DNA from: Paraspadella gotoi | Taxonomy: Eukaryota > Animalia > Chaetognatha | Length of the DNA: 64,000 nt | Direction of reading: 5' to 3' | NCBI GenBank assembly: GCA_051294375.1 | Contig: CM119269.1 | Coordinates: forward strand, 6,461,552-6,525,551 | Shown here: positions 42,160-45,100 of the stretch, piece after piece | Numbering within the stretch: the stretch's first letter is position 1 | Layout of the letters: each line of letters opens with the position of its first letter | The notes under the pieces: generated by a model | What the model saw: only the letters and a program-made list of their open reading frames with translations | Told to the model about the DNA's origin: nothing | Database searches by the model: none | Made by a program: the position numbers and the translations under genes

Positions 42160-45100
42160 TCAACGGGCGTCCTCGTCGTCTTTCGACGTCTGACTCGGGA
42201 AAGTAAAGCTACGCTGCAACCGCATCCTCCTGTACTCGACTCGCCTCTCCTTGCGTAGCGCGCGACGCGACTGGAACTCGGTCCGGGCGAGCGCCTTGGC
42301 CACGGCGTCCGGAACGTCGGGGATGGCGAAGGCGACGACGCACTTGGCGACGACGACGAGGTGTTCGAAGGCGACGAAGACGAGCACGTGCGTCGACGGA
42401 GACAGCGGGAGAAGGGAGGATGTGCGGACGTTGAGGCCAAGAGGCCCGTGTTGGTCATCACGCCTTTTTTTTTTTTTGGAAAAGAGGCGGTGGGAGAGGG
42501 TGGGCAAGAAATTGGGGTATGGAAGGAACGGATTAAACGGGGCGAGAGGACGGATCATTCATTAACTACCTTACAAAGTATCATTTGTTTCGGCTTAATA
42601 ATAACGAATAAATAATAATAATAATAATAATGATAATAATAATAATAATAATAATAAATATAACGAGGAAGAAGCCAAGAGAATTTACGTAATTTTAATG
42701 AGAAAAGAAAAGTTAAAAAAAAGGATATTTGACAGGAATATTACCAAAAAAAAGTGTTAATAAAAATGTTCGTATTGACGTTAGACGCACAAAGTAGGTC
42801 AAAAACTAAATATAATTTAACCAAACTATTAATAAAAGTAATAAAATCCACGAAAATAAAAAAAGATTCATTCCGTCTGGCGATCGATCGAGACAAGAAC
42901 GACGACAAGGCCAATCTTCCCCTCTTCTTCACCCACCCCCCACCCTCCCACCCTCTTCACCGACCCACGATGCCGAGAATCTCGAAGGCCGTCTGCCAGG
43001 CGCCGATGCTGGACGCCGACTGCGCGAAGGGGCGACGGCAGACTCTGCAGAGTTTGAACCCGTCAGACTTCATCTCCAGGACGTTGTTTAGGAATGCCCA
43101 GAACGCCGCCAGGGGATAGACTGGAGGGAAAGGGGAGGAAGAAAAAAGAAAAGAGGGAGTTCCGGGTTTAAATGTAGTTTTACTCTATGTTAATTAAGTA
43201 CTATGCAATTAAATCATAAAGCAAATGAGATTTAAATTCTTCAATATATCTATCTATCTATCTATCTATCTATCTATCTTTTTGGGGAAAAATTATAAAG
43301 TGACCACTGACCAGTAAGTAATAACATCCTAAATAATCAGTTTTATTCAATAAACATATTAAAGGTTCATGCCACAGAAATGAACTTGAACCGTGGTAAG
43401 TGCCCTCCAAAACTGACCCGATGAAAACAAGAATACGTAGCCGAACTGAAGGAAGAGTTCGAGATAATCGTCGAAAGTGCCTTCGTACGGAACCATCCCG
43501 CGTTCGATCCTGACTTGGTCGCCCAACGTCTCGCCGACTCCGACTCCCGCCGACAAGAAGGAGGAAAGCTTCGTCGACGAGGATGTGGAGGCGCTCGTGG
43601 ACGAGGAGATCGAAGGCCTTGTCGCGGATTCATCTCTGCCGGGGGGCGTGGCGTCCTAGGAAAAAAGGGGCGTGTCCGGCGTCAAACTGTAACTTGTTTT
43701 AAAAGGAAGAGAGCTTTTTTCAGGCCCATATATACCAGCTCTAGTGGGATACCGATTGACGTCCTACCATTTATACTTTTCTCACGAACTCACCTCTCCC
43801 TCGCTCTCGGACTTTCTTAGCTTGAGTCCGAAGAATTGATTGTTTTTGGCCAAAAGGATCGCGTAGGGCACCAGAGCTTCCTTCACGTGGCCCAAAATTT
43901 GCTGAGCAAAAAACGAAACTTTAAGTTACGACGAAGATAAGGATAATATAAATTTGATTGATGATGATGATGATGATAATTGTAGCGAGGTGCCGGCAGA
44001 GGGTGTCCAGGTCCGTACTCACCTTTATGTGATCATGATTGTAGCTAGGTGCCGGTAGAGGGTGTCCAGGTCCGTACTCAACTTGAGTGATCATGATTGT
44101 AGCTAGGTCCGGCAGAGGGTGTCCAGGTCCGTACTCACCTTAGTGATGAAGATTGTAGCTAGGTGCCGGCAGAGGGTGTCCAGGTCTGAACTCACCTTAG
44201 TGATCATGATTGTCGCTAGGTGCCGGCAGAGGGTGTCCAGGTCCGTACTCACCTTAGTGACCATGATTGTTGCTAGGTGCCGGCAGAGGGTGTCCAGGTC
44301 CGTACTCACCTTAGTGATCATGATTGTAGCTAGGTGCCGGCAGAGGGTGTCCAGGTCCGTACTCACCTTAGTGATCAAGATTGTAGCAAGGTGCCGGCAG
44401 AGGGTGTCCAGGTCCGAACTCACCTTAGTGACCATGATTGTAGCTAGGTGCCGGCAGAGGGTGTCCAGGTCCGTACTCACCTTAGTGATCATGATTGTAG
44501 CTAGTTGCCGGCAGAGGGTGTCCAGGTCCGTACTCACCTTAGTGATCATGATTGTAGCTAGGTGCCGGCAGAGGGTGTCCAGGTCCCGGTCCCAAAAGGC
44601 GATGTAGAAGAGAGACCCGAATCCGTTGACGGATTCAAAGACGATGAGTTTCGTGATGAGGAAATTCTCGTGCGTCGACTGAAGGCGATGATTCTCCCAC
44701 TCGGTGAGACTCTTGGCGATCTCGCGGTAGAACTGGTTCAGGATCCCGATCGCCGTTGCGTACACTGGAGATTGGGGACGGATCGATAAATCAATCGATA
44801 GATATTATTTAACTAAAAACGGGTTTCATTCAGGAGACAAAAAAAATTAGAGAAAAATTTATCAATATCGCAATAGAAAAAATAAACGAATTATTTAATG
44901 AAAAGAAAAATTTAATCAATCAATAAATAGAGCGCATGATTCATAAATCAATTTGATCAACAAATATTTAATCAAGCATTTTAATCAATAAATTAACTTG
45001 CAACAATTGAAATATGTAAAAACCATTGTAATTAAGCCATAAACAAATACCTTACCGGCCGATGGAAGAAACAACAATGGCGTGGTCAGCATCGAAGGGT

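What the first reader, a model, noticed from the sequence alone, without database searches (positions are those of the whole stretch)
43978..44586. In-frame tandem array of 5' splice sites in an anoctamin: potential repeat-number dial on a transmembrane segment
Seen: the last 49 nt of the exon plus the first 8 intron nt (AAG|GTGAGTAC) are repeated about 10.7 times with a 57-bp (19-codon) period. Eight intact donors (exon ends 44538, 44481, 44424, 44367, 44310, 44253, 44196, 44139) share phase 0 with no stop, so each would splice in frame to 43901 and add 0-7 copies of [19 protein letters not shown]. Unit differences are synonymous (Ala GCT/GCA/GCG, Leu CTA/CTT) or mild ([28 protein letters not shown]). 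Indels and a stop appear only in the distal units. Known: this segment follows 'SLFYIAF', i.e. the TM4-TM5 region lining the TMEM16 scrambling groove. Inference: a VNTR could generate a graded isoform ladder, or the cell must suppress 7-9 near-perfect competing donors.
Basis: partly seen in the sequence, partly recalled or inferred. Interest (0 to 1): 0.82.

Follow-up and report, generated by a model that had tools for sequence, protein, structure and literature searches.

The report
Repeated splice donors in TMEM16K intron
In an invertebrate gene for a lipid-scrambling membrane protein (TMEM16K/ANO10 type), the end of one exon and its splice signal are copied about ten times into the next intron; the one assembled RNA found uses only the first signal, so the copies are likely silent or minor, as in several known human and amphioxus genes, although their mutations are oddly protein-friendly.

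Summary
The array is real: 57 bp x 10.8 at 43971-44586, with eight in-phase donors. It loops in 3 of 3 DNA runs laid, from two studies. The gene is ANO10/TMEM16K-like. The unit is the TM5-TM6 loop plus the first half of TM6, not TM4-TM5. The only RNA-like run gives one unbroken contig (depth 29) spliced 44538 to 43901, with no repeat loop. An even isoform ladder is excluded in that library; rare use is not. This is a known kind: exon-boundary minisatellites (human F7, CBS, IFI6, LMNB2, ABCA7; amphioxus 'mirages'), where the most upstream donor wins. This scan has reported the same arrangement in other genomes. One oddity remains: the exon-derived unit changes are synonymous or go to residues common in homologues (P 0.0007-0.02, post hoc; synonymous excess alone P 0.09). 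That could be chance, exchange with the exon by unequal crossover, or minor in-frame use of later donors. New member of a known kind; interest 0.3.

The parts
43971..44586 (-). 57-bp minisatellite, 10.8 copies; unit = last 49 nt of the exon + first 8 nt of the intron (GTGAGTAC)
   Evidence: unit-to-unit junction in DNA runs X1, X5, X7
44538..44764 (-). Coding exon (TM4 end, TM5, TM5-6 loop, TM6a); its last 49 nt are the first copy of the repeat core; authentic donor after 44538
   Evidence: Pfam Anoctamin E 2.7e-21; human ANO10 366-439, E 1.4e-17; RNA contig ends here with a loose end equal to the next exon
44139..44537 (-). Units 1-7: seven further intact, in-phase donors (exon ends 44481, 44424, 44367, 44310, 44253, 44196, 44139); 9 distinct substitutions, no indels; not seen used
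   Evidence: no loop contig in X9
43971..44138 (-). Distal units 8-10: indels, a GT>TT dead donor at 44082, an out-of-phase donor at 44023, a Cys>Tyr change; last unit cut short and merging into (ATC)n
   Evidence: the last unit's link to the unique intron, with its 3 differences, is in DNA run X1; indels not checked in reads
43902..43970 (-). Unique 3' part of the 636-nt intron with pyrimidine tract and AG
   Evidence: sequence; covered to 43950 by contigs of X2, X3, X8
43794..43901 (-). Next exon (starts [10 protein letters not shown]6b, with the Glu aligned to the Ca-site position), phase 0
   Evidence: 30 of 30 loose-end letters of the X9 contig match 43872-43901; Glu at this offset in 106 of 145 anchored homologues
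42160..50051 (-). Whole ANO10/TMEM16K-like gene, 15 predicted exons; first exon (50051-50012) putative; last exon has a 1-nt frameshift in the assembly
   Evidence: 13-exon model open for 589 aa, 14-exon model open for 643 aa; only joins 45056-44764 and 44538-43901 are shown by RNA

Best explanation
This is a minisatellite that copies the exon end and its splice donor about ten times into the intron of an ANO10/TMEM16K-like gene, and the one assembled mRNA is spliced at the first donor, so the extra donors are likely silent because the spliceosome likely commits to the most upstream of identical sites, as shown for human F7. Shown: the array, its presence in DNA of three samples, the first-donor splice in one RNA library, and its place at TM6a. 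Inferred: it arose by a local duplication (the last copy stops after about 40 core bases and runs into an ATC microsatellite, which suggests slippage at short homologies) and grew by unequal exchange. It is tolerated because any leak stays in frame. The protein-friendly look of the unit variants is likely a post hoc chance pattern, or indirect selection: a crossover or deletion of whole units makes an internal copy the coding exon end, so harmful copies are removed without ever being spliced from inside the array.
For:: X9 gives 1 laid record, 1286 nt, depth 29.3. It skips 44764-45056 with CT..AC ends and leaves 44538 with 30 letters identical to 43872-43901. 'Goes back 57' is 0 in X9 but 47.4, 111.4 and 377.6 in X5, X7 and X1. 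An even ladder predicts 7 of 8 transcripts with a unit and 3.5 units each. Precedent: F7, LMNB2 and an 81-bp PDGF repeat use only the first donor; CBS and 6-16 add only the next two (PMC1557585). Amphioxus mirages do not disturb splicing (PMC3087553). 0 of 145 anchored homologues repeat TM6a and 106 of 145 keep the exact TM5-to-Glu spacing. The two closest relatives (P0001, P0002, 89-90% identical) run from ITK into V and then non-repeat sequence. The window holds 19 minisatellite loci in 64 kb, and a second repeat starts at this gene's putative first donor.
Against: Nine distinct substitutions in units 1-7: 4 synonymous, 5 mild, none at codon position 2 (P 0.003 for all mild, 0.011 for BLOSUM loss). 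H>Q, M>L, then F, and I>V go to the commonest or second-commonest residue among 106 homologues (36, 73, 16 and 22 of 106); threshold-free P 0.0007-0.02 depending on the events counted. Indels sit only in distal units (P 0.007-0.025). The RNA evidence is one library of one study, tissue and array genotype unknown, and Logan contigs are lossy by design. The scanning rule was shown in mammalian cells only.
Confidence: 0.62

Rival explanations
1. Leaky but tolerated: donors 2-3 (perhaps more) are used in a minority of transcripts, as in IFI6, CBS and ABCA7. The last included copy would become TM6a, joined to TM6b, and earlier copies would loop into the ER lumen as amphipathic helices. The protein would still work, so selection keeps the proximal units protein-compatible.
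For: Protein-like unit variation; clean proximal and broken distal units; all eight donors are AAG|GTGAGT, a strong consensus match; unit is amphipathic (hydrophobic moment 1.74 for the first 11 core residues); by eye about 7 of 145 more distant homologues have a longer TM5-TM6 loop (P0003, P0004, P0071, P0093, P0110, P0144, P0147); second-donor use is documented in PMC1557585 (introduction), PMC4526556 and PMC5954066 (passages).
Against: No loop contig in X9. Known leaks stop at the second or third donor, yet the clean pattern runs to unit 7. Synonymous excess alone is not significant (4 of 9, P 0.09; omega about 0.42).
Confidence: 0.27
2. A regulated or genotype-dependent ladder: many donors are used substantially in some tissue or stage, and repeat number sets the mix of scramblase isoforms.
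For: Eight in-phase donors with an open frame; protein-like variation; loop-to-flank depth ratios differ among samples (5.2, 16.8, about 4), a weak hint of length variation that the tool says is no copy number.
Against: Unbroken first-donor contig in the only RNA-like run; no homologue with repeated TM6a in 145; closest relatives show no in-frame array; upstream-donor rule (PMC1557585).
Confidence: 0.07
3. The array is an assembly artefact.
For: The assembly has small indel errors elsewhere (last-exon frameshift; ragged 24-bp array), so copy number and distal indels may be wrong.
Against: Unit-to-unit junctions occur in 3 of 3 DNA runs laid, two of them from a study other than the best holder's; X5 and X7 give an 87-nt (57+30) cyclic contig several times deeper than the flank; X1 links the last unit to the unique intron.
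Confidence: 0.02

Closest known systems
Human F7 intron 7 (IVS7) 37-bp VNTR (Borensztajn et al. 2006, PMC1557585; read: abstract, introduction, first results sections, whole discussion)
   Same: First monomer spans the exon-intron boundary; 5-9 identical donors; only the most upstream is used, including where some pseudo-sites would keep the frame open.
   Different: F7's unit is mostly intron (4 exon + 33 intron nt, out of frame); here 49 of 57 nt are coding exon and every proximal donor is in frame. Mammal versus invertebrate.
CBS intron 13 31-bp VNTR, IFI6/6-16 intron 2 minisatellite, LMNB2 100-bp and PDGF 81-bp repeats (as summarised in the introduction of PMC1557585; CBS notation c.1444_1467+7 in passages of PMC2630376; IFI6 in passages of PMC4526556; the primary paper PMC306954 was not held)
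   Same: Donor reiterated 10-25 times. The CBS unit is also mainly exon end (24 + 7 nt). IFI6 yields three mRNAs and isoforms from two downstream repeat donors.
   Different: CBS and IFI6 use two extra donors; here none was seen at contig level. That IFI6's unit is 12 bp and in frame is recalled, not checked.
Amphioxus 'mirage' minisatellites (Adh3, globins BflGb6/BflGb9; PMC3087553, passages)
   Same: Invertebrate tandem duplications of an exon-intron boundary, 10-160 bp units, length-unstable, with array ends left out of homogenisation; regular splicing not disturbed.
   Different: The passages read give no in-frame, protein-compatible series at a gating helix.
ABCA7 intron 18 25-bp VNTR (PMC5954066, passages)
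   Same: Each unit starts with the donor; retention of one unit is seen.
   Different: Unit wholly intronic and out of frame; the length effect acts through skipping of the next exon, which was not tested here.
Human TMEM16K/ANO10 ER scramblase (PDB 5oc9; Bushell et al. 2019, PMC6718402, passages)
   Same: Best structural relative of both exons tested; the unit matches D425-S440, which holds groove residues L428, Q431, S432, L436 and S440 of TM6.
   Different: No TM6a repeat in any of 145 anchored homologues; scramblase activity not tested here.

Membership tests
Exon-boundary (donor-reiterating, 'mirage') minisatellite | Tandem array whose first monomer spans the exon-intron junction | tested here: met
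   junction confirmed by RNA contig
Exon-boundary (donor-reiterating, 'mirage') minisatellite | Donor sequence reiterated intact in the intron | tested here: met
   7 further in-phase and 1 out-of-phase AAG|GTGAGT
Exon-boundary (donor-reiterating, 'mirage') minisatellite | Most upstream donor is the one mainly used | tested here: met
   one RNA-like run, one contig, depth 29.3, no loop; one study only, rare forms invisible
Exon-boundary (donor-reiterating, 'mirage') minisatellite | Copy number varies among individuals (VNTR) | tested here: inconclusive
   loop/flank depth 5.2, 16.8 and about 4 against 3.6 expected for the window's array; contig depth is not a copy number
Repeat-generated isoform ladder (IFI6/CBS type or stronger) | Spliced transcripts from downstream repeat donors | tested here: not met
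   none at contig level in X9; not met for major use, untested for rare use
Repeat-generated isoform ladder (IFI6/CBS type or stronger) | Units under protein-level constraint | tested here: inconclusive
   P 0.0007-0.02 against homologue profile, 0.09 for synonymous excess; post hoc
Anoctamin, ANO10/TMEM16K subfamily | PF04547 above the curated cut-off | tested here: met
   76.4, 30.3 and 67.5 bits against a cut-off of 28 for three exons
Anoctamin, ANO10/TMEM16K subfamily | Closest named and solved relatives are ANO10 | tested here: met
   PDB ANO10 E 1.4e-17 against ANO6 1e-6; only ANO10 hit for a second exon; 2 of 6 clusters looked up named anoctamin-10-like, 1 'Anoctamin', 3 unnamed. No tree was built, so ANO8 is not formally excluded.
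Anoctamin, ANO10/TMEM16K subfamily | Ca2+-regulated lipid scrambling in the ER | not testable with these tools
   needs an assay

The most novel reading that the evidence does not exclude
The array is a working splice switch on the scramblase's gating helix. Donor k makes unit k the first half of TM6 (wild type, H>Q, I>V, M>L or M>F versions, all residues common in homologues) and loops the earlier copies into the ER lumen. A length-variable minisatellite would then supply a selected set of groove-lining variants in tissues or stages not sampled by the one RNA library.
Probability: 0.1. Interest if true: 0.72.

Novelty: new member of a known kind. Interest (0 to 1): 0.3.

Why it matters
As it most likely stands, it is one more natural test of 5' splice-site choice: eight identical strong donors in an invertebrate, all in frame, so nonsense-mediated decay cannot hide use of the later ones. 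That makes it a cleaner test of the upstream-donor rule than F7. If the protein-like variation is real, it would show either that silent intronic copies can be kept coding-compatible through recombination with the exon, or that a minisatellite supplies alternative versions of a scramblase gating helix. I found no report of either for anoctamins in the searches run (listings only).

Tried and rejected
No whole genome is held, so paralogues and the genome-wide rate of such arrays could not be counted. The run search listed no holder on record as RNA ('no RNA holder listed'); X9 is treated as RNA only because its contig is spliced. (X2, X3, X6, X8 on 43600-44045) confirmed the downstream exon and the unique intron tail (3 of 4 runs reach 43950; X6 stops at 43799) but gave no rows over the last unit, so it says nothing on distal indels. 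A search with the 133-aa repeat-only peptide found nothing among 7994 candidates, and the exon search for longer proteins found only P0001 among 9 candidates; both are weak blanks. Pfam zf-C2H2, SWIM and ACT hits on the repeat read-through have 0 passing stretches and come from summed weak C-x-H matches: rejected. Five top-150 hits that matched only the repeats at 21-25% identity had no anoctamin anchor and were dropped before counting. A first column count had an off-by-one error and was redone. Extra membrane passes were rejected on hydropathy. A ladder of old exon alleles was rejected as the source of variants: units differ star-like from the exon sequence, and the closest relatives keep H, M and I. 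Other frames and the other strand show no constraint. The primary IFI6 paper was not held and one IFI6 search found nothing. No isoform with extra units was folded. No supplements were read; those of PMC3087553 (mirage alignments) may bear on whether in-frame mirages were already noted.

Full report
Observation. On the minus strand eight exon ends, 44538 to 44139 in steps of 57, read AAG|GTGAGT and the frame is open through unit 7. Unit 8 has a deletion and an insertion, the donor at 44082 reads TT, unit 9 has two extra bases and Cys>Tyr, the donor at 44023 is intact but out of phase, and unit 10 stops early and merges into (ATC)n. The exon's last 49 nt equal the majority core exactly. The open frame needs no special cause: 49 of 57 nt are copied coding sequence and a period divisible by three has a prior near one in three (inference).

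The gene. Thirteen exons from 49278 to 42965 give 589 residues without a stop when the 44538 donor is joined to 43901; a putative upstream exon extends this to 643. Three exons pass the Pfam Anoctamin cut-off. Human ANO10 is the best solved relative of the two exons tested, and two near clusters are named anoctamin-10-like; no tree was built. The exon aligns without gaps to ANO10 366-439, so the repeated core is D425-S440. In PMC6718402 (passages) C412, S415 and I419 belong to TM5, and L428, Q431, S432, L436, S440 and N444 to TM6, which is split into TM6a and the calcium-binding TM6b. The unit is therefore the short TM5-TM6 loop and TM6a, not TM4-TM5. That this loop faces the ER lumen follows from the ten-helix topology (inference). 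The unit is amphipathic and too polar to cross the membrane alone.

Is it real? Nine runs hold the region, none on record as RNA. Laid on 44530-45200, 3 of 3 DNA-type runs show the joint that goes back 57 nt: depth 47.4 (X5), 111.4 (X7) and 377.6 (X1), against single-copy contigs of 9.2, 6.64 and 95.4. X1 may be the assembly's source; X5 and X7 are other samples of another study. X1 also links the last unit, with its three differences, to the unique intron and holds a GTGAGTTC variant junction. The ratios (5.2, 16.8, about 4) only hint at length variation. Downstream, 3 of 4 further DNA runs cover the next exon and the intron tail to 43950.

Which donor is used? X9 gave one record: 1286 nt, depth 29.3, no differences. 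It skips intron 44765-45055 with canonical ends, covers 44538-44764 including the exon-only letters, and leaves at 44538 with 30 letters identical to 43872-43901. No X9 record goes back 57. Logan contigs are non-branching paths after simplification and are lossy (10.1101/2024.07.30.605881, passages). If all eight donors were used evenly, 7 of 8 transcripts would carry a unit, 3.5 on average, and the contig should break as in the DNA runs (inference). So the first donor dominates in this library. Limits: one library, one study, tissue unknown, array genotype of those animals unknown, minority forms dropped.

Relatives. Of the best 150 hits to the read-through, 145 anchor on the TM5 motif; 5 were dropped. 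None of the 145 repeats TM6a. 106 keep the exact spacing to the TM6b Glu; the other 39 are cut-off predictions, lack the Glu, or (about 7 by eye) have longer loops. P0001 and P0002, 89-90% identical genomic ORFs, run from ITK into V and then unrelated sequence, which suggests the same donor without an in-frame array; their DNA was not seen. The repeat-only peptide found nothing among 7994 candidates.

Evidence against a purely neutral reading. Units 1-7 carry nine distinct substitutions: four synonymous, five mild, none at codon position 2. With base-change types matched, P is 0.003 for all mild, 0.011 for BLOSUM loss and 0.09 for synonymous excess; adding four distal changes gives 0.007, 0.026 and 0.07. 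The amino-acid changes go to Q (36 of 106 homologues at that column), L (73), F (16) and V (22); only 15 of 108 possible non-synonymous single changes reach a residue at 15% or more. A threshold-free version gives P 0.0007 to 0.023 over five ways of counting. Other frames show nothing. These tests are post hoc, on the data that drew attention, are several, and rest on few events in an imperfect assembly. Three readings remain: chance; indirect selection, since an unequal crossover turns any unit into the coding exon end; or minor in-frame use in which the last copy serves as TM6a. I could not separate them.

What is known. PMC1557585 (abstract, introduction, first results sections and discussion read) describes this class: F7, LMNB2 and a PDGF repeat use only the first donor, CBS and 6-16 add the next two, and mutation shows 5'-to-3' selection of the most upstream site. 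ABCA7 retains one unit at times (PMC5954066, passages) and IFI6 makes three mRNAs from repeat donors (PMC4526556, passages). PMC2630376 and PMC10078293 were seen as passages. Searches (listings) showed no anoctamin case. The scan itself has noted the arrangement in other genomes (donor arrays in seven of eight notes, an acceptor array in one); these are unchecked AI notes and I use them only as context.

Verdict. A real exon-boundary minisatellite, a new member of a known kind, with the first donor used in the only RNA seen (0.62 silent, 0.27 minor in-frame leak, 0.07 regulated ladder, 0.02 artefact). The protein-like variation is the one thing worth following. Interest 0.3; the novel case (donor choice swaps TM6a variants) has probability 0.1 and would merit about 0.72.

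Noticed in passing
window 49701-50011 (minus strand): A degenerate 7/14-bp minisatellite starts right at the gene's putative first donor (50012|GTGAGAAG) and puts 11 GTGAG motifs in that intron, against 0-2 in the other introns apart from the 57-bp one. A second donor-like repeat in the same gene; exon 50051-50012 is not shown by RNA.
   Followed up: partly
window about 42438 (minus strand, last exon): One-base frameshift: the anoctamin C-terminal frame continues only after a frame switch; likely a homopolymer assembly error. Not checked in reads.
   Followed up: partly
window 42464-42480 (minus strand): The last exon's likely acceptor AG is preceded by a run of about 13 A instead of a pyrimidine tract.
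   Followed up: no
window 43540-43901 (minus strand): The cytoplasmic stretch after TM6 is about 42 residues longer than in human ANO10 and Ser-rich.
   Followed up: no
window 51253-51344 (+): tRNA-Tyr(GTA) with a 17-nt intron (ARAGORN with introns); the intron-blind run called it tRNA-Leu.
   Followed up: partly
window 10704-10900: 24-bp array of 8 copies with many scattered single-base indels, as in unpolished long-read consensus.
   Followed up: no
window 36320-36560 (+): By eye, a hydrophobic coding stretch resembling the end of a membrane transporter gene, facing the anoctamin gene; not searched.
   Followed up: no
window 1-64000: Very repeat-rich DNA: 125 TRF rows and 19 loci with period 10 or more, 3 or more copies and 60 bp or more.
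   Followed up: partly
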